Source: Escherichia phage naswa. Taken from it: 64,000 nt of DNA. The notes under the pieces are model-generated. The model saw nothing but the letters and a program-made list of their open reading frames with translations. It was not told the DNA's origin and did no database searches. The stretch lies in sequence record MN850595.1. The stretch is one strand, 5' to 3'. Shown here one piece after another: positions 16,321 to 29,035 of this stretch. The position numbers and the translations under genes were made by a program. The stretch's first letter is position 1. The number at the start of each line of letters is the position of its first letter.

Positions 16321-17646
16321 ATGAGTAAAACCAAATTAGAACTAACCTGGATAGGTAAAAACGAGCGCAAAAAGTTAGAGCCGCACATTTTGTTAGAAGA
16401 TTCTAGCAAGTCTTACCACAGCCAGAAAGTGACCGAAAACGATATTTTTGATAATAAACTGATTTTTGGAGATAACTTATTAGCATTGAAGGCGCTAGAG
16501 CAAGAGTATGCAGGCAAAGTGAAGTGTGTTTACATAGACCCGCCATTCAATACCGGGAGGGCTTTTGAGCACTACGATGATAGCCTGGAGCATTCCATTT
16601 GGCTGGGCTTAATGAGGGATAGGTTAGAAATAATTCGTAATCTTCTAAGTGATGATGGGGTAATATTCGTTCACTTAGATGATTGCGAAATGGCGTATTT
16701 AAAAGTTTTGATGGACGAGATTTTTGGTCGTGCAAATCAGTTAAATACCATATCGATGACCACAAATTCCCCTTCGGGATTTAAGGCAACAGGAGCCACA
16801 GTTTTCTCCACAGCAAACTTTTTGCTTGTATATGCAAAAGATCGCACCCAGAAACCGCTTAATAAAATCTATATACCTAAAGGGTACGATACAGGATATA
16901 ACAAATACCTATTAAACCCGGATGACCATTATAAAAATTGGACGTGGTGCAGTATTGCCGATGCGTTTGCAAAGGCCAATGGCTATAAGGATGCAAAAGA
17001 AGCCAAGAAAAAACTGCCTGACACATTCGATGATGAATTAGCACAATTCGCAATTGATAATGCAGAACGTGTATTTCAATCTGTTGCAATTGGTGGTGGT
17101 GCTAAAATAAAGAGAAAAGAAACTATCGAGAAGTCAAAGAAAGATAGGGATAAGGTTTATGTACATCCAAATGAGGATGTTGAAGGATTTTATATCGCAA
17201 ATGGTAGGCAAATGGTCTTTTACTCCAATAGGCTTTTGGAAATTGACGGTGAGATGCAACCTGCGGAACTAATAACTGATGTTTGGACAGACATTAGTTG
17301 GAATGGAATAGCAAATGAAGGCGGCGTTAGTTTCAAAAATGGGAAAAAACCAGAAGCGCTTTTGAAGCGGATTTTCGAAATGTGTACGCGAGAAGGCGAT
17401 TTGGTATTGGATTCATTCGGTGGTTCGGGAACTACTGCTGCTGTAGCTCACAAGATGAAAAGACGTTGGATCTCAATCGAGCTAGGTGATCATTGTCATA
17501 CCCATATTATTCCGCGCTTGGAAAAAGTGATCGATGGCGAAGATCAAGGTGGTATTTCTAAGTCTGTAAGCTGGCAAGGTGGTGGTGGCTTCCGTTATTA
17601 CAAACTCACCCCGGCCTTAGTTGCGAAAGATAAGTCTGATCAATAA
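16321..17646 (+). CDS. DNA methyltransferase, beta-class amino-MTase (N6-adenine or N4-cytosine)
   Basis: Catalytic 'DPPF' motif precedes SAM-binding 'FGGSGTT' (motif IV before I). Confidence 0.75.
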   Translation: MSKTKLELTWIGKNERKKLEPHILLEDSSKSYHSQKVTENDIFDNKLIFGDNLLALKALEQEYAGKVKCVYIDPPFNTGRAFEHYDDSLEHSIWLGLMRDRLEIIRNLLSDDGVIFVHLDDCEMAYLKVLMDEIFGRANQLNTISMTTNSPSGFKATGATVFSTANFLLVYAKDRTQKPLNKIYIPKGYDTGYNKYLLNPDDHYKNWTWCSIADAFAKANGYKDAKEAKKKLPDTFDDELAQFAIDNAERVFQSVAIGGGAKIKRKETIEKSKKDRDKVYVHPNEDVEGFYIANGRQMVFYSNRLLEIDGEMQPAELITDVWTDISWNGIANEGGVSFKNGKKPEALLKRIFEMCTREGDLVLDSFGGSGTTAAVAHKMKRRWISIELGDHCHTHIIPRLEKVIDGEDQGGISKSVSWQGGGGFRYYKLTPALVAKDKSDQ

Positions 17647-18861: not shown

Positions 18862-18888
18862 GCCCTGCCCGAAAGGGTGGGGCTTTTT
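18862..18888 (+). terminator. rho-independent terminator
   Basis: GCCCTGCCC-GAAA-GGGTGGGGC hairpin (G-U pairs) then TTTTT; same hairpin at 29008. Confidence 0.6.
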
Positions 18889-18906
18889 GCATTAGGAGAC
18901 AGCAAA

Positions 18907-19671
18907 TTGAAATTTATCTACAAAGAACACTACCACAAAGGTGTTGTGTGGAGTCTATTTGACGGGTCTGGTGGTGCAGTCATTGACTGGGCAAAAGCTG
19001 GGTACCTGTGCCTGTGCTTTAATGCAGAAGGCGCTGATCACGGCAGTTATGCAGAGGTTATAACCGATCATCCCAACATTCACTATGTGGATTATTGGAT
19101 TGACCCATGGTTCCCTCAGGAAACTTTTTGCATGTACCCAGCTCCAGACTTTATTCTTGCATTTCCTCCGTGCACGCATTTAGCGGTATCAGGTGCTGCA
19201 CATTTTAAGAAAAAGCTGGCTAAGGACCCTCTGATCCAAATTAATGCCGTAAAGGATGCTCGGGTTGCGGAAGAGCTGGGAGAGATTTACGATTGCCCGT
19301 GGCATGTAGAGAATCCTGTGGGTGTTATGTCCACACTGTGGCGCAAACCTGATTACCGTTTTCATCCTTCTGACTATGGTGGGTATTTACCGGAGGATGA
19401 TGTAAACCCTTGGTTTCCTGAATTTATAGCTCCACGTGATGCCTATCCAAAAATAACTTGCGGCTGGATAGGTAATGGATTTATAATCCCGCCCACAAAA
19501 CCTGTCCCGCAAATAGTTGACGCGGTTAGCGGGTATTCTATGCAACACGCCAAGCTGGGTGGAAAGAGTGCAAGAACGAAGATGATTCGAAGTCTCACAC
19601 CACGTGGCTGGGCAAAAGCCGTATTCTTAGCAAACGAGCCTGTAGTAAGGAGCAGAATTAATGGGAAGTAA
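18907..19671 (+). CDS. putative C5-cytosine DNA methyltransferase-like protein
   Basis: 'FDGSGG' (FxGxGG-like), 'FPPCTHLAVSG' (PC motif) and 'VENPVG' (ENV-like); start placed at TTG 18907 after terminator with TAGGAGA SD. Confidence 0.4.
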   Translation: MKFIYKEHYHKGVVWSLFDGSGGAVIDWAKAGYLCLCFNAEGADHGSYAEVITDHPNIHYVDYWIDPWFPQETFCMYPAPDFILAFPPCTHLAVSGAAHFKKKLAKDPLIQINAVKDARVAEELGEIYDCPWHVENPVGVMSTLWRKPDYRFHPSDYGGYLPEDDVNPWFPEFIAPRDAYPKITCGWIGNGFIIPPTKPVPQIVDAVSGYSMQHAKLGGKSARTKMIRSLTPRGWAKAVFLANEPVVRSRINGK

Positions 19672-21739
19672 ATTTATGGCATCTGCATACAACCGTTTCG
19701 GTGAGCCAAACCCGAAAGCAACTAAGTATAAAAGTGGGGGGAGTGTGAAACGAGACTATCGTGATGAAAAAGAAGTTGAAACTGTAGAGACTGTTTTAGA
19801 AAATACTAAAATTGTCCCTGTCCCACAACAAAATATCGGTCTGATGGCTGCACAATATTTTGGTGTGCGATCAGCATTGTCCCAAGAAGACGGTGTGACA
19901 GTCACTGCAACATATTTCCCATATTACGACCGCTACGGAAATCTGTCTGGTTTCAAAAAGCGTGACTGGACTATTCCTAAAGAGCAAAGGGGCCATTTCT
20001 CCGTTGTTGGCATCGTAAAGGCCAACTCCCAGATGTTTGGTCAAAAGCTGTGTGCATCTTCCAACAACCGTAAGCAGATTAACGTTTGTGAGGGAGAAGG
20101 TGATGTTATTGCAGCATGGCAGGCTGCATATCAGATACAAGTAAAAGGGATTCTCACCAACGCTAAAGCCCCGGCAAAGGTGAAGCAGTGGGCTAAAGAG
20201 GTCCAGGACGGGATCGACGCAGTTATCAACGGTGGTGATCTGGCAGGAAAACCCTGCCTGCCTTTTGTTGGAATTAACTGTGGATGTGCAAACGCAGTAG
20301 ATACTTTTGCAAACAATGAGAAGTTTATCCGTAGCTATGGAACAGTTGTGCTGGCAATGGATAACGATGCAGCTAACGAGGTAGAGAAGCAAAAACACGT
20401 CATTAAAGGTGTTGAGGCCACGCACAATATCGCAGCATTTTTGATGTCTGATAACGTTTACCACGTAGAATACCCCGGTGAAGTAAATGACCCTGACGGT
20501 GTAAAAGATATCCGAGACATGCTGAAGGCTAAAAAGCTGGAAGATATTGTCAACATGTTCCGGCACCCTGTTAAATATGTGCCTGATGCTGTGTCGGATT
20601 TAGAAGACTTCTCTATCGAGTCTTTGCGGAAAAAGACTTCCAACGGGGTAGATATCAGTGCAGAGTTCCCAAAACTGCAAAAAATGCTAAAAGGCTTGCA
20701 CAAAGGGACACTTGTAATGCTTACAGGTCCATCAGGCGGCGGTAAAACAACCGTGGCTAAAAAACTGGAACACTGTATTGCAAGATACCTAATGGACCCG
20801 ACATGCCCGAAGGCCGATGACTATGAAGAGGATGATCGTCTATGCATGATCCATCTTGAGGAGGATCCAGAGGAAGCAATTAACTCCTTGTATGCAAACC
20901 AGTTAGGGTTTGATGTTAAAGAGTTTGTTGAAGATCCTAGCCAGTTTTTAACTGATCAAGAACACGCAGAGATTCACCAATCATGGGCAAAAGCTGGAAA
21001 AATCAAAGTGTTCAAACATTTCGGGTCTATTCCGGTGGACGAGTTGATTACCAAGCTTAAGCAAATGGTTTGCCTGTACCATTGTCGTTATATTGTGCTG
21101 GATCACCTGTCCATGGTAATTTCAGGGCTTAATGTTAAGGATGAGCGAAAAGAACTGGACATGGCTATGACCCAACTGGCTGCGTTTTGTAAGCAGTTTA
21201 ACGTGTTTATCTTGGTGATCGCTCACCTCAAACGTACAGAGATTGTGCCCCCTAAGGACAAGGATGGTAACCCATTACCTTTCTGGTATCCTGTGCGAAA
21301 AGAGAATTTGCGAGGATCGGCTGGGCTTGAACAGTTGAGTTGGGTAGTCATAGGTGTCGAGGCCGAAGAAATGGTGGATCGTTCTCGTGGACGTGTCCGT
21401 CTGGTAGGTCTTAAAAACCGTCCAGCAAAAACTTTAGGTATTGCTGACACTTTAGTTATGGATCCGCATACAGGTAAGTTCCATGATGCCAGTAATTGGT
21501 ACTGGGACAAAGAAATGCAGATGTTCACAGACGGAGAAGGTGGGGAGGTTGTTTGGAGACCTCAGGCTATGTTTGAGGATCAGGAGCATGCAGTTGTAGA
21601 AACACCTATGGGCAAGGTTGTGGCTGATAAGGTTGTAACACCCACTGTCAAGCCTATTGACACGCAGGAAGACCTCCAATACGATGATCCATCCTCTGAT
21701 CCGGTCCCTGGTTTTGAGGATGATGAAACACCTTTTTAA
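19661..21739 (+). CDS. DNA primase-helicase (TOPRIM + DnaB/gp4-like helicase)
   Basis: Acidic TOPRIM-like 'CEGEGD'; Walker A 'GPSGGGKT', Walker B 'IVLDHL'; acidic C-terminal tail '...FEDDETPF'. Confidence 0.75.
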   Translation: MGSKFMASAYNRFGEPNPKATKYKSGGSVKRDYRDEKEVETVETVLENTKIVPVPQQNIGLMAAQYFGVRSALSQEDGVTVTATYFPYYDRYGNLSGFKKRDWTIPKEQRGHFSVVGIVKANSQMFGQKLCASSNNRKQINVCEGEGDVIAAWQAAYQIQVKGILTNAKAPAKVKQWAKEVQDGIDAVINGGDLAGKPCLPFVGINCGCANAVDTFANNEKFIRSYGTVVLAMDNDAANEVEKQKHVIKGVEATHNIAAFLMSDNVYHVEYPGEVNDPDGVKDIRDMLKAKKLEDIVNMFRHPVKYVPDAVSDLEDFSIESLRKKTSNGVDISAEFPKLQKMLKGLHKGTLVMLTGPSGGGKTTVAKKLEHCIARYLMDPTCPKADDYEEDDRLCMIHLEEDPEEAINSLYANQLGFDVKEFVEDPSQFLTDQEHAEIHQSWAKAGKIKVFKHFGSIPVDELITKLKQMVCLYHCRYIVLDHLSMVISGLNVKDERKELDMAMTQLAAFCKQFNVFILVIAHLKRTEIVPPKDKDGNPLPFWYPVRKENLRGSAGLEQLSWVVIGVEAEEMVDRSRGRVRLVGLKNRPAKTLGIADTLVMDPHTGKFHDASNWYWDKEMQMFTDGEGGEVVWRPQAMFEDQEHAVVETPMGKVVADKVVTPTVKPIDTQEDLQYDDPSSDPVPGFEDDETPF

Positions 21740-21797
21740 TGTTTAACAAAGAGTGGGAGGGGTAGTACAACCGCCTCCCCTTTAAGGAGAACTGTAT

Positions 21798-24575
21798 ATG
21801 AGCATGTGGTCGTTCGATTTTGAGTCATCCGGTTTGCTGGAAGACCCAGATCTTTATTATCACTGCGGTCTGTTTAAAGAGCTGAATAAGAACCGTTTTA
21901 TGCTGTTCCTTCCTCTAAATGACCGCACACACTACTCCGGGGAGGATATAGAAAAGGCTAAGAACTTCATTCTGGCAAAGAAAACTCTTTATAAAGATTT
22001 TGAAGTTCGCATAGCAGATTTTTCGGAGTTGGAAGGTTGGCTTACAGGCAATTCTGACTGGTCACCAACAGCTTTGAACTGCCATAACTGCTACAGTTAT
22101 GACTTTATGCTGATGGAAAGATTATCCGGTATTCATTTTGATATGTTCCGTGATCCTAAATGCATGGGGACTATCAACGACCACCAGGTTAACCTGTTTG
22201 ATACGTTGGCGATGAGCAGAATCTTGTGGCCTGATCGCCCTTTACCAAAAGGTTGTCCGGACTCTGTATTCAACCCGGTTACTAAGAAAATGCAGCCTGT
22301 TGGTCCTCACGGCCTTATGGCATGGGGCTACGCCCTTGGTAACCAGAAAGTTCAAATTGATGACTGGCGCGATCTTCCGTTGTGGAAGTATGTGGATCGT
22401 GTATTCGAGGACGTTATCATCCAGGAGCTGCTCTGGAAAGAGCTGGTAGCGGAATCAAAAGGCGTATTCTACGGCAAATCTGACATGCAGAACTTTATGT
22501 ACGATCCAGCCAAAGAGAAGCCGAAAGGGTTCAAGAAAATCACCTGGAAGAACGCATTACGCCGAGGCATGCTGCAGCACTTCCTGATGGAGCTGCAGGC
22601 CCGTCAGGGTGTGTATTTCGACATAGATGGGGCTATTGCCTTACGTGACCGTTGCGATGCGTGGATGAAAGAGATCGCTGATCGTGTTGAACCTCAACTT
22701 CCTTTAAAAGAGTTGTCAATGTCTCAGCGGCCCAAGTTCCCTGAAAAGCCGTTTAACCAAGACGGGACAATCTCCAATAATGGTTGGAAATGGTTAAAAG
22801 ATAAGCTTGGCTATCCTGTAGACATGAGCGCTTTAGAATTCAAAGCCCCGCCTAAGCGAGCATTTACCTCCACAGGAGATGTCAGCAAGATGGGGATAAA
22901 ATGGTGCGAAGAGATGGGCTGCAAAGACCCCGACAAGATGGCTGATTTCTTGAGAGGTTATATTAAGGGCACCTCCACACCACAACCTTTACCTAAAGAG
23001 CTGATGGATCAGGCAATAAGTGATCTGCAGCAGAAGCGAATGCCTGACTGCAAGATACCTATGAAAATCAGCAATCAGGACGACATTAAGCGATACCTGA
23101 TCAGTGCTGGTTGGCTTCCGACAATGTGGAGAACTAAGGATGTAACTAAGGACAGCAAGAAGAAAGCTCTACCTGATGCAGATGTTGATGCACGAGTATA
23201 TGCATACATGGACGAGCTTTTAGAGTCAGAGTATTGTGACCTAATTATCAACTTCTGGAACAAAACTGATGCTAAGTTTCAGACAACAGTGCACAAGTTC
23301 CGAAGCTTTCCTAACTCCGAAAGGATTAAAAAGGAAGTGTTCGGGAAAATACGCAGAAAAGCCAGGGCACTTATTACTTCTCCGCAACTGAAAGATACGT
23401 TTGGACACCTATGTCCGAATCTTGAAAAATTGAACGGAGAGATGGCTAAAGATATCGTCTTGTGGTTATCATTGCGAAACCGCAGATCGGTCCTTGATCC
23501 AATCAAGGAGGATAAGGTTGATACTGGTCTTCTTAATCACCCACGTTTGAAGATTGACCATAAGCTTCCTGCTAAAAGCTCTGGATTAACAAACACTTCC
23601 CGACAGAAACACAGTATTTGTGCAAACATGCCTAAACCATCTCCTAAAGTGGTTATGGGTAAAGAGATGCGTAGCTTGTGGGGTGTTCCTCCTGGATACT
23701 TTGAGATCGGTATTGACGGGTCCAACTTAGAGCAGCTTATCGGGGCTTGGGGTGCCTTTGAGTTCGACAACGGCTTGTACTATGATGTTGTAAGTAACGG
23801 AGACGCACACCAAAACAATGCTGAAGCATATACAAAAGTAGCAGGCAGAGAGGTGTCTCGTAACGACGGTAAACCTATCACGTATGGGGTTATGTACGGG
23901 GCACAAAAAGATAAAGTTGCAGATATGCTGGATATCTCCCCAGAGTTGGGGCAAAGGGTGATCGATGCACTTTGGGATGCCAACCCCGGTCTTAAGGGGC
24001 GCAAAGAGGATCTGGAGAAATTCTGGGAAGCAACAGGTAAGAAGTTTATCTACTCTTTTGATGGTCATGCTATCTGGACCCGATCTAAACACTCTTTACT
24101 TAATGCATACCAACAAAATGGTGGTGCATCGCTGTGTGACTTAGTTGGGATACTCATGCACCACCAAATGGTGAAGCGTGGGTGGTACGATGAAGGTGTC
24201 CGTCGTATTATCTATTACCATGACGAATATCAGCTTCAAGTGCCTGACACACCGAAGTATAAGACTGTGTACACCTTCGACACAATTGAAGAACTGGAAG
24301 CATTTAAGGCAGAGCAGGAAGCCAAACTTCATGTGTTCGACGGTCATAAGTACAAAAAGGTACGCAAGGATGAGGACGGAAACGAAGTGGTTGACAGAGA
24401 CGGAAACACGGTGTACGATCCTATCCTGAACGATGACGGAAAGCTTGAACTTATCTGGAGCCCTGTGGGTGAAATGGTGGTGCATTGCTTCTGGCAAGCT
24501 TCTAAAATGATGGGAGTCCCGTTCCAGATCACAGGTGAATACTTGTGTGGTCGTAATTGGGGTGATTGTCACTAA
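21798..24575 (+). CDS. DNA polymerase, family A, with 3'-5' exonuclease
   Basis: Exo I 'FDFE'; Pol A motif A 'DGSNLEQL', motif B 'RNDGKPITYGVMYG', motif C 'YYHDE'. Confidence 0.85.
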   Translation: MSMWSFDFESSGLLEDPDLYYHCGLFKELNKNRFMLFLPLNDRTHYSGEDIEKAKNFILAKKTLYKDFEVRIADFSELEGWLTGNSDWSPTALNCHNCYSYDFMLMERLSGIHFDMFRDPKCMGTINDHQVNLFDTLAMSRILWPDRPLPKGCPDSVFNPVTKKMQPVGPHGLMAWGYALGNQKVQIDDWRDLPLWKYVDRVFEDVIIQELLWKELVAESKGVFYGKSDMQNFMYDPAKEKPKGFKKITWKNALRRGMLQHFLMELQARQGVYFDIDGAIALRDRCDAWMKEIADRVEPQLPLKELSMSQRPKFPEKPFNQDGTISNNGWKWLKDKLGYPVDMSALEFKAPPKRAFTSTGDVSKMGIKWCEEMGCKDPDKMADFLRGYIKGTSTPQPLPKELMDQAISDLQQKRMPDCKIPMKISNQDDIKRYLISAGWLPTMWRTKDVTKDSKKKALPDADVDARVYAYMDELLESEYCDLIINFWNKTDAKFQTTVHKFRSFPNSERIKKEVFGKIRRKARALITSPQLKDTFGHLCPNLEKLNGEMAKDIVLWLSLRNRRSVLDPIKEDKVDTGLLNHPRLKIDHKLPAKSSGLTNTSRQKHSICANMPKPSPKVVMGKEMRSLWGVPPGYFEIGIDGSNLEQLIGAWGAFEFDNGLYYDVVSNGDAHQNNAEAYTKVAGREVSRNDGKPITYGVMYGAQKDKVADMLDISPELGQRVIDALWDANPGLKGRKEDLEKFWEATGKKFIYSFDGHAIWTRSKHSLLNAYQQNGGASLCDLVGILMHHQMVKRGWYDEGVRRIIYYHDEYQLQVPDTPKYKTVYTFDTIEELEAFKAEQEAKLHVFDGHKYKKVRKDEDGNEVVDRDGNTVYDPILNDDGKLELIWSPVGEMVVHCFWQASKMMGVPFQITGEYLCGRNWGDCH

Positions 24576-24624
24576 TGTAAACTATCAACACATGGAAGTG
24601 TTGTTGAGCAAAGAGGAGACTTTT

Positions 24625-24909
24625 ATGGTAGTAGAACCAACAAAAACATTTACATCCATGACTATTCCTGTTATTATGCAGGTGGAGTGTGTTCAGGTAT
24701 CTCAAGTGTGGCCTGGCACCAAAATCCCGACAGGGCCTGATTTCTTTCAGGTTGGCAAAGTGTACAATGTCTGGAAGGCACCAGATTGTTACCCTTTCAT
24801 CAAAGATGACCGTGGGATGCTGTGGTATCTTGGAAATGATTTGACACTGCACCTTGGGAATGCTATTATTGCAGTATTCAGACTTAACAAGAAGGAGACT
24901 GATCAATGA
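24625..24909 (+). CDS. small protein, WY/WF paralogue group
   Basis: Start moved to ATG 24625 behind AGAGGAG; 'GKVYNVW...DDRGMLWYL' pattern shared with next two genes. Confidence 0.45.
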   Translation: MVVEPTKTFTSMTIPVIMQVECVQVSQVWPGTKIPTGPDFFQVGKVYNVWKAPDCYPFIKDDRGMLWYLGNDLTLHLGNAIIAVFRLNKKETDQ

Positions 24910-25133
24910 CGACTTTGGTTAAAGCTACCTTTGTAGAAGAAAAGATGACAGACCTGTCATTCTTTAAAGAAGGAAAGACCTACGAGGTTTATTACGATAA
25001 AGCTCGTGCAAATAAAATGATTAAAGACGAGGAAGGGGTTGCCTGGTTTATCTCCCATCTGGCAAACGGTGAGTATCATATCTACGGAACCACCCTGCTT
25101 GCCAAGTTTGTAGCTGTTGAAGAGGACCTATGA
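24906..25133 (+). CDS. small protein, WY/WF paralogue group
   Basis: 75 aa; 'GKTYEVYY...DEEGVAWFI'. Confidence 0.5.
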   Translation: MTTLVKATFVEEKMTDLSFFKEGKTYEVYYDKARANKMIKDEEGVAWFISHLANGEYHIYGTTLLAKFVAVEEDL

Positions 25134-25324
25134 AAGTAAAGTATCTGGCTGAGGGTATGAGTAGGTATTTCACCCTTGGTGAAGAATATTGGCCATTTAC
25201 AAGCAACGGCGATGTCTACGTGAAAGATAATTTCGGCACGCCATGGTTTTTGCACCCTAACGGGTTAGGGTATTCTATTTATCGCAGTGCAATGAGCGAC
25301 ACAACCCTTGCAGAGTTTGTATAG
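25130..25324 (+). CDS. small protein, WY/WF paralogue group
   Basis: 64 aa; starts MKVKYL; 'GEEYWPF...NFGTPWFL'. Confidence 0.5.
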   Translation: MKVKYLAEGMSRYFTLGEEYWPFTSNGDVYVKDNFGTPWFLHPNGLGYSIYRSAMSDTTLAEFV

Positions 25325-25334
25325 AGGAGGTAGA

Positions 25335-25706
25335 ATGTTAGTAAAAGGTACTCACACAGTCAAACAACGTATCGAAGTTGAGATCGATGACTGCGAGCTG
25401 AAGCATATTTTACGGTCATGTTCCAACGTTTTGCTCCTTAGTATTCTCCAGGAGCGAGCGGAGAACGAGTTCTTAAATGCACTGGCAGGCCGCCCTGGTG
25501 ATTTCTGTGTGCGTAAGCGTGGTGACAACAAGTCATGGCTGTGGGAGATAGACGCAGAATGGGATTACCATAAAAATGAGGGTATAGATGAACCTATTCG
25601 TGAATTGACGGACAACGAGGTTCAGATGTACAATGAAGTTTGTCAGTGGGCAAAAAGTCAACAAACTTATCTTGATCCTTGGTGGATGATCGAAAATAGT
25701 CGTTGA
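25335..25706 (+). CDS. hypothetical protein
   Basis: Start moved to ATG 25335 behind AGAGGAGG SD. Confidence 0.45.
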   Translation: MLVKGTHTVKQRIEVEIDDCELKHILRSCSNVLLLSILQERAENEFLNALAGRPGDFCVRKRGDNKSWLWEIDAEWDYHKNEGIDEPIRELTDNEVQMYNEVCQWAKSQQTYLDPWWMIENSR

Positions 25707-25782
25707 CAGGAAGTAAGATTAGATATAAGATGCTTCACACAAACAGAGCGTTGATTGTTTAACACTTAAGGAGACCGCTAAG

Positions 25783-26037
25783 ATGAAAATTACTCTGAAG
25801 CCAGAATGCGTTGAAAATGACCGAGCTTTTAAAGATTGCACAATCGGTGCAATTTATGAAGCAGAGTTTTGTGAGAACCCTTTGGTAAAAGCCCTTCTGG
25901 AAGAAGGAGCTCCTCTATCACAGGAAGAGCTTGATGAGTTGGAAAACTCAGCACAGTGCCTTACCTTTAAAGATGATGAAGGAGACTCTGTCTGGTGCAC
26001 TGTTAATGAAGTAGTTTTTGTAAAACCTGAACATTAA
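25783..26037 (+). CDS. small protein, paralogue pair A
   Basis: 84 aa; 'KPECVENDRAFKDCT' matches next gene. Confidence 0.5.
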   Translation: MKITLKPECVENDRAFKDCTIGAIYEAEFCENPLVKALLEEGAPLSQEELDELENSAQCLTFKDDEGDSVWCTVNEVVFVKPEH

Positions 26038-26100
26038 TGCTTGACAACAGTCATAGGGCCTACTATAATGGCCCTATCAAAACGAAAGGGGACCACAGCA

Positions 26101-26373
26101 ATGACCAAACAATATCAACGAATTAAAGCCAAGGTTAAGCCAGACTATCTGGAGAAGGACTCTGCTTTTCGGGACTGCACAGCTGACAAAGTTTACACAG
26201 GGGCCGTCCTGTTGAACGATGAACTTGAAGTAGATATTCTGGGTAAAGAGGCCACTATTAAGGACGACCAAGGCGATTATGTTTGCTGCACCACACGTGA
26301 GCTAGAAATCTTAGAATACTTCGGTGAAATCTTCACCTCTCTTGATGATTACTTAGATGATGAGGAAGCGTGA
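26101..26373 (+). CDS. small protein, paralogue pair A
   Basis: Start moved to ATG 26101; 'KPDYLEKDSAFRDCT'. Confidence 0.5.
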   Translation: MTKQYQRIKAKVKPDYLEKDSAFRDCTADKVYTGAVLLNDELEVDILGKEATIKDDQGDYVCCTTRELEILEYFGEIFTSLDDYLDDEEA

Positions 26374-26762
26374 TGAAAAATATTTGGGATATCGATATCT
26401 TTGAAGCCTCTAAGCTTGATGGTGCTGATGGAGTGATTATGGTGTCTGATGGCAAAGCAACACTAACTTCCGGAGATATCATCTATGCCTTGGACGAGCT
26501 GGCGCTTCTGAAATCTACCGGTAACACTTTAGAGGAGCGTCTTCAAGGCTTCGCCTTCAAAGAAGGCACAAATACCGCCATGATGTGCACCACACGGACA
26601 GTTCAAGTTGGTAACGGTGTCTATATGATCATTGCTGTGTGTCCTAAATTCAGCAACGTCAACAAAGATGATGCTGACGCTGTCAACGATGTGGTTGTTC
26701 TCTTCGTGGGTGACGCTATGGCAGATCTGATGAATGCAGGAGAAGCAGCAAATGAAGACTGA
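26370..26762 (+). CDS. hypothetical protein
   Basis: Track ORF 130 aa; ATGA overlap. Confidence 0.5.
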   Translation: MMKNIWDIDIFEASKLDGADGVIMVSDGKATLTSGDIIYALDELALLKSTGNTLEERLQGFAFKEGTNTAMMCTTRTVQVGNGVYMIIAVCPKFSNVNKDDADAVNDVVVLFVGDAMADLMNAGEAANED

Positions 26763-27054
26763 AAACATCACCCCCGCAGGGTTCTTAAAAGTATACCGTG
26801 AACTGCTATATACTACAGAGGACAGTGTTCTAGAGTATCCAGAATATCTTTTGCTGTATAAGTATCTGCAGGAGGCTGGTGAAAATCTGCCAGTTAGTGC
26901 AGAAGGTGGTCCGAACTGGATATACAGCGCATGGAGAAAGGTTGACATTCTCCCAGATCCAGGTAAAGATATGGTAGTTTGGCAGCTTATCAACAACATT
27001 GGGATTCCAATCTTTGATGAAGCTGTTAAAATCTATTTTGAACTTGACGATTAA
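26752..27054 (+). CDS. hypothetical protein
   Basis: Start moved to ATG 26752 behind GGAGAAG. Confidence 0.45.
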   Translation: MKTENITPAGFLKVYRELLYTTEDSVLEYPEYLLLYKYLQEAGENLPVSAEGGPNWIYSAWRKVDILPDPGKDMVVWQLINNIGIPIFDEAVKIYFELDD

Positions 27055-27071
27055 TATCAGGAGACCTTAAG

Positions 27072-27317
27072 ATGACTGAAGTAGTTGCTCGCGCAGGACA
27101 GAAAGTACGTTGTGTTGAAGTAGGTTTTGGTGGCAAAGGGTGTCAAAACTTGACTCAAGGTAAGGAATACGCTGTTATTTCTGGTGGTGGCGACGAAAGT
27201 ATTGTGTTCGAGGGCCACATCCTGGATGCTGAAAACTTTGAAATCTTTGACGACGATGGGGATCCGATCACCTGCCTGCTGGACGGGAATTGGGGAACTT
27301 TCGAAGTGATTGGCTAA
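27072..27317 (+). CDS. hypothetical protein
   Basis: Track ORF 81 aa; AGGAGA SD upstream. Confidence 0.5.
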   Translation: MTEVVARAGQKVRCVEVGFGGKGCQNLTQGKEYAVISGGGDESIVFEGHILDAENFEIFDDDGDPITCLLDGNWGTFEVIG

Positions 27318-27400
27318 CAAATACCTATTGTAATTTGCAGAAGGGGATGCTAAAATAGTGTCTCCTTCTATGTTGTTCAAATAAAATCGGAGATTCCATA

Positions 27401-27766
27401 ATGGAACAAATGAACGATCAAGCGTCGGTTGCGATGAACGAGCAAGAACAACCTCAAGAATTTTTCTTAGGGTTAAGTAAAGATCAAGTGTCTCTTCTGC
27501 TAGTGCTTTCTTCTTTCATGGGAAGACTTCAGGAGCTCACACAACAACCAGAGGCTGAACAATTATTTCAAGCTCTGCGTGAAGAAGAAAAATATCGTCG
27601 TTTGGACTATGCCTTAGGTTGGGTAGCTCAACAACGAGATATGCTGATGGCCCTCTCTGGGACCACAAGTTTTGCAATGGGGCTGTTGGCTCAAGTTCAG
27701 GACAAATTAATTCAAGCAGGGTTTGCACACACGGCAAACACTAACGAAGAACAAGGAGACAAATAA
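27401..27766 (+). CDS. hypothetical protein
   Basis: Track ORF 121 aa directly upstream of SSB. Confidence 0.5.
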   Translation: MEQMNDQASVAMNEQEQPQEFFLGLSKDQVSLLLVLSSFMGRLQELTQQPEAEQLFQALREEEKYRRLDYALGWVAQQRDMLMALSGTTSFAMGLLAQVQDKLIQAGFAHTANTNEEQGDK

Positions 27767-28992
27767 TGAGCGTTATTCAACAATTCGCTAACCCGATGAA
27801 TCCGCGTGAAACTGTTTTACTGGCTCACGGCATGATTAAACGTGTCAGCATCAAGCCTATCAAAGGTGCTGATCCTACAACAGGTATTAAAACCACTGTG
27901 TGGCAAGGTAAGAAAATTGAATCCAGCCACACCATCTCTTTACTGATTTCTGAACTGGATTCCTCTGATAACCTGCTTCAAGGTGGTGAAGAAGTTTGGA
28001 TCAGCATGGGTGATAAGCTGCTTAAACCTGGTCATCAAGACTCTGTCTCTGTTAAAATTGATGACAAGTGGGAAACCGTAACGCCGGGATGGATCGTAAA
28101 TATCCCTTTGAAGGCAAACGAGCATAACGGTAAGACCTATTACAAAGGCTCACTGGCTAAGATGGTCAAGCTGGGTGCAGGAGAGGCTCCAGCAGCGACT
28201 CAGCAGCAAAAACAGCAACAAGGTGCACAATCACAAGGCCAGAAGCAGAAACCTCAGCAGAATGCCAATCAGGACGTTTTACGCATCTATGGCGATGTGA
28301 CTCAGATTGTTGGCAACGTGGTTACTGTTAATGACCACAAGATTGGCGAAGGTGCTATGGTTGTAACTGATGAGCAGCTTAAAGACCTGGTGGTAGGTGG
28401 TCGTGTTGCAGCCATTGTTGACAAAGACACCGGAAACATTATCAGTGGTTTCAAAGCCTACCCCCCTAAGGCAGAGAACGGCACTCAAGGCTCCGGTGGC
28501 AAGCGTAAATCCTCTTACGACCCTATCGGTGTGGAAACGGGGCATAGCATCAATGCGTTGCAGATCATCCTGGATCGCGGGTTTAAGGTAGACGACCCAC
28601 TGGGCGTGGCTAAAACACTGCACGTAGTCACCATTGAGCTTAAGAAAGAGTATGCTCAAGCCACCAACCGAACTGAAGATGAAGTAGGTGCCAGTGTCGG
28701 TAATGCGGTGTTGAACGCTTGTCGCCGTATTGACAAGAAAACGAAAGTTGATGATTTTGCAGCGGCAATTACTGCAGAAGCAAAAGATGTCTTGACTAAT
28801 CTGGCTGAACCGTTGTACGATTGGATCAAGAACGGTGCTGGGTCAACTGACTATCAAGAACCCCAGGCTGCCAAACAGGAAGCAGCTCCACAGCAAAACA
28901 CTGTAGACGCTCCTCCTGTAAATGATGAGGAAGATGACCCAATGGATCAGAATCCAGCACAGTATACCTTTGATGATGACATCCCTTTTTAA
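27766..28992 (+). CDS. ssb: single-stranded DNA-binding protein
   Basis: C-terminal 'DDDIPF' matches the canonical bacterial SSB acidic tip; Gln-rich linker; sits in the replication module. Confidence 0.6.
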   Translation: MSVIQQFANPMNPRETVLLAHGMIKRVSIKPIKGADPTTGIKTTVWQGKKIESSHTISLLISELDSSDNLLQGGEEVWISMGDKLLKPGHQDSVSVKIDDKWETVTPGWIVNIPLKANEHNGKTYYKGSLAKMVKLGAGEAPAATQQQKQQQGAQSQGQKQKPQQNANQDVLRIYGDVTQIVGNVVTVNDHKIGEGAMVVTDEQLKDLVVGGRVAAIVDKDTGNIISGFKAYPPKAENGTQGSGGKRKSSYDPIGVETGHSINALQIILDRGFKVDDPLGVAKTLHVVTIELKKEYAQATNRTEDEVGASVGNAVLNACRRIDKKTKVDDFAAAITAEAKDVLTNLAEPLYDWIKNGAGSTDYQEPQAAKQEAAPQQNTVDAPPVNDEEDDPMDQNPAQYTFDDDIPF

Positions 28993-29007: not shown

Positions 29008-29035
29008 GCCCTGCCCGAAAGGGTGGGGCATTTTT
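29008..29035 (+). terminator. rho-independent terminator
   Basis: Same GCCCTGCCC-GAAA-GGGTGGGGC hairpin as at 18862, followed by ATTTTTG. Confidence 0.6.

What the first reader, a model, noticed from the sequence alone, without database searches (positions are those of the whole stretch)
19661..28992. Primase-helicase and SSB both end in acidic tails finishing with Phe
The primase-helicase ends ...FEDDETPF and the SSB ends ...DDDIPF. In T7-like replisomes the acidic, Phe-terminated tails of gp4 and gp2.5 compete for the same site on the polymerase; the family A polymerase sits between these two genes here.
Basis: partly seen in the sequence, partly recalled or inferred. Interest (0 to 1): 0.45.

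Follow-up and report, generated by a model that had tools for sequence, protein, structure and literature searches.

The report
Matching acidic Pro-Phe tails on replisome proteins
In this rV5-like coliphage the T7-type primase-helicase and an SSB-like protein both end in a floppy acidic tail finishing in Pro-Phe, a conserved docking motif: the SSB one copies the tip of the host's own SSB, so this is a real but largely expected variant of known replisome "tail-docking" systems.

Summary
The window is Escherichia phage magaca (Vequintavirus, rV5-like). ORF 19661-21739 is a T7 gp4-type primase-helicase ending ...GFEDDETPF. ORF 21798-24575 is a T7 gp5-type family A polymerase. ORF 27766-28992 ends ...YTFDDDIPF. 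These are the only two of 252 ORFs ending acidic+Phe, and the only two ending PF. Both tips sit on ~50-residue disordered acidic linkers. Both are conserved as short linear motifs while the linkers vary.

The "SSB" is not a gp2.5 homolog. It has two beta/OB-type domains, a four-helix bundle and a tail, with no Pfam match. It is 405/408 identical to Bas52_0087. A 2026 preprint describes that protein as SSB-like, with an FDDDIPF tip resembling E. coli SSB, and as the trigger of the DRT10 defence. FDDDIPF equals the last 7 residues of E. coli SSB; relatives match all 12.

The T7-style reading (both tails dock on the polymerase) is plausible but untested. The polymerase keeps only two of the four T7 front-basic-patch residues. 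Host-SSB mimicry explains the SSB tail at least as well.

Aside: many phage SSBs, and some helicases, carry a conserved 14-16-residue cap (APIGLQY...) after the PF. I found no description of it.

The parts
19661..21739 (+). T7 gp4-type primase-helicase gene (692 aa)
   Evidence: phrog_239 'DNA primase/helicase' E 1e-159; Pfam DnaB_C/AAA_25. Best PDB sequence hit is T7 gp4. Foldseek on the AF2 model puts the two-domain T7 gp4 chains first, E 1e-29.
19778..20575 (+). Primase (RNA-polymerase/TOPRIM) domain, aa 40-305. Contains EGEGD (aa 144) and DNDAA (aa 234). No zinc-binding domain precedes it.
   Evidence: AF2 pLDDT >90 over aa 40-305; aa 1-36 disordered; 0 Cys in the first 70 aa. Aligns to the T7 gp4 primase domain.
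20648..21580 (+). SF4 (DnaB-family) helicase domain, aa 330-640, Walker A GPSGGGKT at aa 356
21581..21736 (+). Disordered acidic C-terminal linker of the helicase, aa 641-692 (13 D/E, 3 K/R)
   Evidence: AF2 pLDDT <50 for aa 641-692; composition; high column entropy in homologs.
21713..21736 (+). Helicase tail tip FEDDETPF (motif: acidic-[ETSC]-P-F-COOH)
   Evidence: PF end kept down to ~43% identity, including Vibrio-phage relatives.
21798..24575 (+). T7 gp5-type family A DNA polymerase gene (925 aa)
   Evidence: phrog_17/8888; Pfam DNA_pol_A below its gathering cut-off (31.8 vs 34.3 bits). Best PDB sequence hits are T7 DNA polymerase, E 7e-16.
22620..23096 (+). Enlarged thumb insertion (aa 275-433, 159 aa) at the position of T7's thioredoxin-binding region (111 aa in T7)
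   Evidence: MAFFT alignment with T7 gp5 and 6 relatives. Function not tested.
24039..24044 (+). Dibasic K748-K749, aligned to T7 gp5 R590-R591 of the 'front basic patch'. Candidate tail-docking residues.
   Evidence: HMMER and MAFFT alignments. G-K-[KR] is invariant in the 7 polymerases of this clade in the alignment (magaca, PVP-SE1, KpS8, phi92, L013-L015), where T7 has K-R-R; CR3 and L003 show it. T7 patch residues from PMC12339929.
27401..27766 (+). 121-aa ORF (phrog_7310, unknown function). Its stop overlaps the SSB-like start (ATGA), so it is probably co-translated. A small gene lies at the same position in PVP-SE1, phi92 and KpS8; their homology to this ORF was not tested.
   Evidence: annotation tables.
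27766..28992 (+). SSB-like protein gene (408 aa), phrog_4477; ortholog of Bas52_0087, the DRT10 trigger
   Evidence: 405/408 identical to Bas52_0087, with D252 and Y351 present. bioRxiv 10.64898/2026.04.29.721553.
27766..28179 (+). N-terminal beta domain (aa 1-138), OB-type
28276..28461 (+). Second small beta domain (aa 171-232). Absent from the ~275-310-aa relatives.
28522..28830 (+). Four-helix bundle (aa 253-355) with invariant G259, H260, N263. Y351 lies in it and D252 lies one residue before it.
   Evidence: The preprint places D252V and Y351C at a putative oligomerisation interface.
28852..28989 (+). Disordered acidic C-terminal linker, aa 363-408 (12 D/E, 1 K/R)
28969..28989 (+). Tail tip FDDDIPF, identical to the last 7 residues of E. 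coli SSB
   Evidence: PMC5872125 abstract gives DDDIPF as SSB-Ct.
29008..29035 (+). Terminator-like hairpin plus T-run directly after the SSB-like stop codon. No C-terminal extension and no homing endonuclease in this phage.

Best explanation
Both tails are C-terminal docking motifs (short linear motifs) of a T7-type replisome. Each protein carries a ~50-residue disordered, acidic linker that ends in x-Pro-Phe with a free carboxylate.

The hexameric primase-helicase would display six such tips, assuming it forms a gp4-like hexamer. The ssDNA-bound SSB-like protein would display many. I infer that the tips insert the terminal Phe into a hydrophobic pocket with a basic rim on partner proteins.

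The most likely common partner is the phage family A polymerase. That would tether the polymerase to the helicase and hand it over SSB-coated template, as T7 gp4 and gp2.5 do with gp5.

The SSB-like tip has a second property. It is a copy of the host SSB C-terminal tip, so it should also engage, or compete for, host SSB-interacting proteins such as exonuclease I.

Shown: gene identities, disorder, motif conservation, identity to the host tip.
Inferred: the partner(s), the shared pocket, and competition between the tails.
For: 1. T7-type helicase and polymerase.
2. Tails lie in regions with pLDDT <50. They are strongly acidic: 13 and 12 D/E against 3 and 1 K/R.
3. Motif-like conservation next to variable linkers, across 147 family representatives and 120 helicase clusters.
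4. The triad of helicase-PF, PolA and a ~390-aa protein ending [DE][DE]x[IV]PF keeps its gene order in Vibrio-phage-like contigs. There the third protein belongs to a different PHROG, so the tail outlives recognisable homology of the body.
5. The terminal dipeptide matches within each system: PF/PF here, DF/DF in T7.
6. The K-[KR] aligned to T7 R590/R591 is invariant in the clade. T7 tails bind that patch (PMC12339929; PMC8472574).
7. The tip is identical to E. coli SSB. The near-identical Bas52_0087 is genetically required for DRT10 activation, a system modulated by the SSB-tip partner ExoI/SbcB.
Against: - No binding test was possible, since no multimer prediction is available.
- Only 2 of the 4 T7 patch residues are kept, the T7 loop is missing, and the thumb insertion differs.
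- The helicase tip has a small or polar residue at -3 where the SSB tip has I/V/L, and it lacks the -7 aromatic. The two tips may therefore prefer different pockets.
- Relatives tolerate a 15-residue extension after the Phe on one protein: Bas54, PVP-SE1 and phi92 on the SSB-like protein, KpS8 on the helicase.
- In more distant lineages the helicase has no acidic tail at all (phi92 gp161, L060, L064).
- ssDNA binding by the SSB-like protein has not been shown.
Confidence: 0.5

Rival explanations
1. Host-SSB mimicry only. The SSB-like tip, and the helicase tip as a weaker copy, exist to plug into the host SSB interactome (ExoI, RecQ, PriA, chi of Pol III, RNase HI, UDG and others). They recruit useful host enzymes to phage forks or titrate harmful ones. 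The phage polymerase is not their target.
For: - 7 to 12 residues of identity to the E. coli SSB C-terminus, far more than an acidic+Phe rule needs.
- The same tip sits on canonical PF00436 SSBs of unrelated phages.
- DRT10 triggering by Bas52_0087, and its modulation by ExoI dosage.
- An HK620 SSB tip binds its own recombinase, which shows that phage SSB tips serve varied partners.
Against: - It does not explain why a helicase should carry the motif.
- It does not explain why the helicase version differs systematically at -3 and -7.
- The helicase and polymerase are T7-type, and in T7 the helicase tail binds the polymerase.
- The preprint reports no direct binding data.
Confidence: 0.3
2. Auto-regulatory tails. 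Each acidic tail mainly folds back onto its own DNA-binding surface (the OB cleft of the SSB-like protein; the helicase or primase DNA path) and competes with ssDNA, tuning affinity and cooperativity. Partner docking would be secondary.
For: This is established behaviour of the gp2.5 and E. coli SSB tails: background knowledge, mentioned in PMC12339929 and PMC5928155. The linkers are long and acidic.
Against: Charge alone would serve for auto-inhibition. It does not explain an invariant terminal Pro-Phe across >100 clusters, nor identity with the host tip.
Confidence: 0.1
3. The shared ending is a by-product of mobile DNA. Homing-endonuclease cassettes that insert at ...CCTTTT|TAA have spread a common 3' end between the two genes.
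For: - A homing-endonuclease gene lies exactly between the Phe codon and the stop in L002 and Bas54.
- An HNH gene follows the helicase in L003.
- The two tail-coding ends share GATGATGA and CCTTTTTAA, 19 of 30 nt.
Against: - The tails are conserved at the protein level in lineages with no endonuclease nearby, and over 43-100% identity ranges.
- The two motifs differ consistently.
- The DNA similarity follows from identical amino acids and codon usage.
- Endonuclease presence is sporadic.
Confidence: 0.03

Closest known systems
Bacteriophage T7 replisome: acidic, Phe-terminated tails of gp4 (…WSNDTDF) and gp2.5 (…EADEDGDF) that bind basic patches of gp5/thioredoxin
   Same: Homologous helicase-primase and polymerase. 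Both proteins carry disordered acidic tails ending in a C-terminal Phe. The last two residues match within the system. Part of the front basic patch is kept (K748, K749)..
   Different: - The tips end P-F, not D-F.
- The ssDNA-binding partner is unrelated to gp2.5.
- The helicase lacks the zinc-binding domain.
- The polymerase lacks the K587/K589 loop and has a 159-aa thumb insertion in place of the thioredoxin-binding loop region.
- No binding data exist.
Bacterial SSB C-terminal tip (SSB-Ct, E. coli …EPPMDFDDDIPF), the hub that recruits more than a dozen genome-maintenance proteins
   Same: The window protein ends FDDDIPF. PVP-SE1, KpS8 and several metagenomic relatives end, or contain, EPPMDFDDDIPF. 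The tip follows a long disordered linker after an OB-type domain..
   Different: The body is not a PF00436 SSB. It has two beta domains plus a four-helix bundle, no Pfam match, and unknown oligomeric state. A helicase in the same phage carries a related tip, which is not a feature of the bacterial system.
Bas52_0087 of phage RudolfGeigy (bioRxiv 10.64898/2026.04.29.721553): the 'SSB-like' trigger of the DRT10/UG17 reverse-transcriptase defence
   Same: It is the same protein (405/408 identical). The preprint already reports the AF2 architecture and the FDDDIPF resemblance to the E. coli SSB tip.
   Different: In my term searches of the preprint's text I found no mention of the primase-helicase tail, the polymerase, a T7-type tail competition, or the capped variants.
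HK620 SSB / Sak4 (PMC5928155)
   Same: A phage SSB whose last six residues (NDYPPF, also ending P-F) are needed to stimulate a cognate phage protein.
   Different: It acts in a recombination module, not a replisome. It is a distant homolog of bacterial SSB rather than a member of the phrog_4477 family.

Membership tests
T7 gp4-type bifunctional primase-helicase | C-terminal SF4/DnaB-family helicase domain with Walker A | tested here: met
   Pfam DnaB_C/AAA_25; PDB hit to T7 gp4, E 4e-16; GPSGGGKT at aa 356.
T7 gp4-type bifunctional primase-helicase | N-terminal RNA-polymerase/TOPRIM primase domain fused to the helicase | tested here: met
   Foldseek aligns about 580 columns to the two-domain gp4 chains (5IKN, 1Q57), E 1e-29. 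EGEGD and DNDAA motifs present.
T7 gp4-type bifunctional primase-helicase | Cys4 zinc-binding domain for primase site recognition | tested here: not met
   aa 1-36 are disordered and there is no Cys in the first 70 residues. This resembles the short gp4B/Twinkle-like state, so primase activity is uncertain.
T7 gp4-type bifunctional primase-helicase | Acidic C-terminal tail ending in Phe that binds the polymerase | tested here: inconclusive
   The tail is present and conserved. Binding is not testable here.
T7 gp5-type family A DNA polymerase | Pol A palm/fingers plus 3'-5' exonuclease, closest to gp5 | tested here: met
   T7 polymerase chains are the only PDB sequence hits, E 7e-16; phrog_17 E 9e-99. 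Pfam DNA_pol_A scores 31.8 bits, below its 34.3-bit cut-off.
T7 gp5-type family A DNA polymerase | Front basic patch K587/K589/R590/R591 | tested here: inconclusive
   Only the positions of R590/R591 are basic (K748, K749), and they are invariant in the clade. The loop with K587/K589 is deleted.
T7 gp5-type family A DNA polymerase | Thioredoxin-binding thumb loop | tested here: not met
   A longer, unrelated 159-aa insertion occupies the site. Use of thioredoxin was not tested.
T7 gp2.5-type SSB (PF21265 / DUF2815-like) | Sequence or profile homology to gp2.5 | tested here: not met
   BLASTP E about 0.9; no Pfam hit; no tblastn hit in the window with three gp2.5-type queries. Only a weak BFVD structural hit to a DUF2815 protein, E 0.01.
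Bacterial-type SSB (PF00436) | PF00436 OB domain | tested here: not met
   No Pfam hit at E <= 0.01. Canonical phage SSBs match the window only over the tail, E 0.002.
Bacterial-type SSB (PF00436) | C-terminal acidic tip D-D-D-I-P-F on a disordered linker | tested here: met
OB-fold ssDNA-binding proteins (structural class) | OB-type beta-barrel domain | tested here: met
OB-fold ssDNA-binding proteins (structural class) | Binds ssDNA | not testable with these tools
   No assay is available. The preprint also relies on prediction.

The most novel reading that the evidence does not exclude
Both tips are mimics of the bacterial SSB C-terminal tip, and the phage uses them as a two-state switch.

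With a free ...PF-COOH, the helicase hexamer and the SSB-like protein plug into the pockets that normally read host SSB, including the phage polymerase and host enzymes such as ExoI. This is also what SSB-sensing defences such as DRT10 detect.

The conserved 14-16-residue cap (APIGLQY...) occurs after the PF in at least 230 phage genomes. It is found on unrelated SSB families and on some primase-helicases. I propose it is a module, undescribed as far as I could find, that masks or re-targets the tip. It is exchanged between phages, sometimes together with homing endonucleases, under pressure from such defences.
Probability: 0.15. Interest if true: 0.7.

Novelty: new member of a known kind. Interest (0 to 1): 0.42.

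Why it matters
It extends the T7 tail-docking logic to a large, therapeutically used group of myophages: the rV5-like Vequintavirinae and their relatives.

It also shows the two classical systems converging. These are T7 acidic-Phe tails and the bacterial SSB-Ct hub. Here a gp4-type helicase and a non-canonical SSB-like protein both carry SSB-Ct-type tips.

This gives concrete, cheap experiments: tail peptides, delta-PF mutants, and K748A/K749A. Those experiments would show how these replisomes are held together. They would also show why this SSB-like protein triggers the DRT10 defence.

The capped variants supply natural mutants for the same question.

Tried and rejected
- **Polymerase homolog search.** It returned only proteins at 98% identity or more. 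It was useless for conservation or for a deep alignment, so I did not model the polymerase. I used polymerases from fetched relatives instead.
- **Extension as a homing-endonuclease artefact.** I first suspected this from L002, L003 and Bas54. I rejected it as a general explanation. PVP-SE1, phi92, KpS8, a Vibrio siphophage and a P22-like phage have the extension with no adjacent endonuclease. Third-codon positions vary while the peptide is kept.
- **Co-variation test.** I asked whether the helicase tip changes when the SSB-like tip is ...LDF or ...LPW. It was uninformative. In those lineages the helicase has no acidic tail (L060, L064) or the contig was too short (L061-L063).
- **T7 primary papers.** PMC2781589 and PMC6162179 are not held. 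PMC10143822 did not contain the terms I sought. The requirement for a free carboxylate, and the tail-swap results, therefore rest on my own knowledge.
- **DRT10 sensitivity of Bas52 (free tip) versus Bas54 (capped tip).** The preprint's text gives no per-phage values.
- **Single-sequence phmmer.** It did not link the Vibrio-phage ~390-aa proteins to the window protein. The family profile matched only the tail.

Full report
**What the window is.** The region is 100% identical to Escherichia phage magaca (MN850612.1), an rV5-like myophage of the genus Vequintavirus. More than 100 close relatives share the whole 9.3-kb stretch at 90-99% identity.

**Check of the observation.**
- ORF 19661-21739 (692 aa) ends ...SSDPVPGFEDDETPF.
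- ORF 27766-28992 (408 aa) ends ...NPAQYTFDDDIPF.
- ORF 21798-24575 (925 aa) lies between them.
- Of 252 ORFs of at least 60 aa on both strands, only these two combine at least 3 acidic residues in the last eight with a terminal Phe. Only these two end in Pro-Phe.
- A rough expectation is 0.08 such ORFs per 129 genes, so P(>=2) is about 0.003.

**The primase-helicase.**
- PHROG 239 'DNA primase/helicase' matches at E 1e-159, and Pfam finds the DnaB-type ATPase.
- T7 gp4 is the best solved relative by sequence. BLASTP gives 24.5% identity over 522 residues, spanning both domains.
- An AF2 model built on 30 diverse homologs has these parts:
  - a confident domain at aa 40-305;
  - a short linker;
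  - the helicase domain at aa 330-640;
  - a disordered stretch at aa 641-692.
- Foldseek puts the two-domain T7 gp4 chains first (E 1e-29, about 580 aligned columns), followed by Twinkle.
- TOPRIM-type EGEGD and DNDAA motifs are present. There is no zinc-binding domain: residues 1-36 are disordered and the first 70 residues contain no Cys.
- It is therefore a gp4-type protein without the module that T7 uses for primase site recognition.

**The polymerase.**
- The only solved relatives found by sequence are T7 DNA polymerase chains, at E 7e-16.
- I aligned it with T7 gp5 and with the polymerases of PVP-SE1, CR3, KpS8, phi92 and three Vibrio-phage-like contigs.
- The T7 'front basic patch' (K587, K589, R590, R591; PMC12339929) is only half kept. 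A 12-residue T7 loop, including K587, is absent. The positions of R590/R591 are K-K or K-R in every member of the clade (K748, K749 here).
- The thumb region that holds T7's thioredoxin-binding loop is 159 residues here against 111 in T7. It is conserved within the clade but unlike T7.

**The 'SSB'.**
- It has no Pfam hit, belongs to phrog_4477 (unknown function) and has no solved relative by sequence.
- It is not related to gp2.5.
- No gp2.5-type or PF00436-type gene is detectable elsewhere in the window.
- A gp2.5-type query against the phage collection hits T7-like podophages and Pelagibacter phages. No Vequintavirinae appear among the sampled rows.
- AF2 on 33 homologs gives these parts:
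  - a beta domain at aa 1-138;
  - a disordered Q/G-rich linker;
  - a small beta domain at aa 171-232;
  - a four-helix bundle at aa 253-355;
  - a disordered tail at aa 363-408.
- 'SSB-like' is therefore reasonable at fold level, but ssDNA binding is unproven.

**Prior art.** The protein is 405/408 identical to Bas52_0087 of phage RudolfGeigy, including D252 and Y351. A preprint of April 2026 (bioRxiv 10.64898/2026.04.29.721553) found that D252V and Y351C let the phage escape the DRT10 reverse-transcriptase defence. [quoted passage not shown] It also noted that FDDDIPF resembles the C-terminal tip of E. coli SSB, which binds ExoI/SbcB among others. In my term searches of that text I found no mention of the helicase tail or of a T7-type mechanism.

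**The tails as motifs.**
- *Helicase.* Right-aligned over homologs of 43-73% identity, position -1 is F in 100%, -2 is P in 90%, -3 is E/T/S/C/D, and -4 to -9 are 48-72% acidic. Upstream, column entropy rises to 3-3.7 bits.
- *SSB-like protein.* -1 F and -2 P are invariant, -3 is I/V/L, -4 to -6 are D/E/S, and -7 is F/W.
- *Family-wide.* In a profile search of 1.84 billion representatives, 106 of 147 family members end acidic-x-PF and 15 more end acidic-aromatic. Most of the rest are fragments.
- *Host identity.* E. coli SSB (PDB 1EQQ) ends EPPMDFDDDIPF. The window protein shares the last seven residues. PVP-SE1 gp038, KpS8 gp040 and several metagenomic relatives share all twelve.
- *T7 comparison.* T7's tails read ...WSNDTDF (gp4) and ...EADEDGDF (gp2.5). 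Each system uses its own terminal dipeptide on both proteins.

**Co-occurrence.**
- The helicase-PolA-...-SSB-like gene order, with both PF tips, recurs in three distant Vibrio-phage-like contigs (helicase 43-47% identical).
- In those contigs the ~390-aa protein at the end of the module belongs to another PHROG (2544). It matches the window family only in its tail...PMDFDDDIPF...FEEDVPF...FDDSIPF.
- Further out, the pattern breaks. phi92's helicase homolog and the helicases in L060 and L064 have no acidic tail. In L061 and L064 the SSB-like family protein (...DDDLPW) sits beside a true gp2.5-type SSB ending ...DQPF or ...GEEPF.
- That last point is a caution. In some phages this family coexists with another SSB, so it may have a more specialised role.

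**Most likely mechanism.**
- In T7, the acidic tails of the gp4 hexamer contact positively charged patches on gp5. Removing the gp4 tail lowers processivity about threefold (PMC8472574).
- The gp2.5 tail anchors on the front basic patch (PMC12339929).
- The helicase and polymerase here are homologous to their T7 counterparts. The tails are disordered and acidic, their terminal dipeptides match, and the dibasic site is conserved. The best single explanation is therefore that both tips dock on the phage polymerase and can compete there.
- The SSB-like tip can additionally engage host SSB partners.
- I put this at about 0.5. The more general statement, that both tips are functional protein-docking motifs, I put at about 0.9.
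- The main rival is that the tips address the host SSB interactome and not the polymerase (about 0.3).
- The two readings are compatible. From my own knowledge, not verifiable in the held library, a gp2.5 carrying the E. coli SSB tail supports T7 growth (Kong and Richardson 1998).

**An unexpected aside: a cap after the Phe.**
- A subset of homologs of both proteins continues past ...PF with a conserved peptide. Examples:
  - APVGLQYGKSRIHAL (cluster P0001, 533 members, 99% identical to the window protein);
  - APIGLQYGRNFIHCI (PVP-SE1 gp038);
  - APIGLQYGRNFLHCF (phi92 gp156);
  - APIGLQYAKHAIYVI (KpS8 primase/helicase).
- BASEL phage Bas54 (MaxBurger) carries it on its SSB-like protein, so viable cultured phages have it.
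- In L002 and Bas54 the extension and a homing-endonuclease gene are inserted exactly between the Phe codon and the original stop.
- Elsewhere no endonuclease is adjacent.
- The cap also follows EPPMDFDDDIPF on canonical PF00436 SSBs of a Vibrio siphophage and a P22-like Salmonella phage.
- 230 phage records cover at least 80% of a 27-residue tip-plus-cap query.
- A strict back-translated pattern, with about 0.001 chance hits expected, finds 36 IMG/VR contigs and 8 bacterial genomes.
- It comes in two main length classes: a 14-mer APIGLQYPALL.C[MI] and a 15-mer APIGLQYG[RK]..[IL]H.[ILF], plus two 16-residue variants among the 44 hits.
- Third-codon positions vary while the peptide is kept, which indicates selection on the peptide.
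- No held paper contains 'DIPFAP' and nothing in the PDB resembles it.
- In the few genomes I could check, at most one of the two proteins is capped:
  - magaca, Bas52 and JLBYU08 have neither capped;
  - Bas54 and PVP-SE1 have the SSB-like protein capped;
  - KpS8 has the helicase capped.
- From my own knowledge, docking of the bacterial SSB tip needs the free carboxylate of the last Phe. A cap should therefore mask or re-target the tip. I could not test what it does.

**Verdict.** The gene identifications are right for the helicase and polymerase, and approximately right for the 'SSB'. The T7 analogy is a sound but untested hypothesis. It has to be widened, because the SSB-like tip is the host SSB tip and that fact is already in the literature. 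This is a new member of a known kind. The capped tips are the part most worth a follow-up.

Noticed in passing
Not in the window (the stop at 28990-28992 follows the Phe directly). Seen in L002:4225-4272, L004 (Bas54_0087), L007:14183-14230 (PVP-SE1 gp038), L009:15421-15468 (phi92 gp156), L012:9391-9438 (KpS8 helicase), L010 and L011 (canonical SSBs), and L016-L059.: A conserved 14-16-residue C-terminal cap (APIGLQY...) directly follows the ...DDDIPF or ...D.TPF tip on unrelated phage SSB families and on some primase-helicases. It occurs in 230 phage records, 36 IMG/VR contigs and 8 bacterial genomes. The peptide is conserved while codons vary, and I found no literature or PDB match. It makes the Phe internal, so it should mask or re-target the tip.
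   Followed up: partly
L002:4244-4867; L004:2744-3367 (bas54_0088); L003:5121-5666: Homing-endonuclease genes lie immediately after the tail codons. In L002 and Bas54 the cassette (cap plus endonuclease) sits exactly between the Phe codon and the original stop of the SSB-like gene. In L003 an HNH_3 gene follows the capped helicase, but it is absent from the otherwise near-identical KpS8 junction.
   Followed up: partly
window 21710-21739 and 28963-28992: The DNA encoding the two tail tips shares GATGATGA and CCTTTTTAA (19 of 30 nt). This probably just reflects the same amino acids and codon usage. It could nonetheless offer a common target for recombination or homing.
   Followed up: no
window 19661-19777 (helicase aa 1-39): The gp4-type primase-helicase has no zinc-binding domain: the N-terminus is disordered and has no cysteines. 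How primer sites are chosen, or whether the primase is active, is open.
   Followed up: partly
window 22620-23096 (polymerase aa 275-433): The thumb insertion is about 50 residues longer than T7's thioredoxin-binding region. It is conserved across the clade and rich in both K/R (27) and D/E (25). It may be a clade-specific processivity or partner-binding module.
   Followed up: no
window 27401-27766: A 121-aa ORF (phrog_7310, unknown function) has a stop that overlaps the SSB-like start codon (ATGA). One depositor annotates it as 'putative SSB'. A small gene occupies the same position in PVP-SE1, phi92 and KpS8. It may be a partner subunit.
   Followed up: no
L061:336-1851; L064:10001-11371: In distant contigs the SSB-like family protein (ending ...DDDLPW) lies next to a T7 gp2.5-type SSB (PF21265) with its own acidic ...DQPF or ...GEEPF tail. 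The helicase there has no acidic tail. This suggests the family is not always the main SSB.
   Followed up: partly
L001:5138-8244; L005:7750-10803; L007:1323-4947: In several relatives the polymerase gene is interrupted: it is split or joined in JLBYU08 and Bas52, and carries a LAGLIDADG endonuclease in PVP-SE1. Many helicase homologs are ~975-1025 aa, and one carries intein (Hom_end) domains. The replication module is a hotspot for selfish elements. In this window both genes are intact.
   Followed up: no
window 16321-17646 and 18877-19671: Two DNA methyltransferase genes lie just upstream of the helicase: an N6/N4 type matching Pfam N6_N4_Mtase, and a phrog_757 'DNA methyltransferase' that relatives annotate as Dcm-like.
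   Followed up: no
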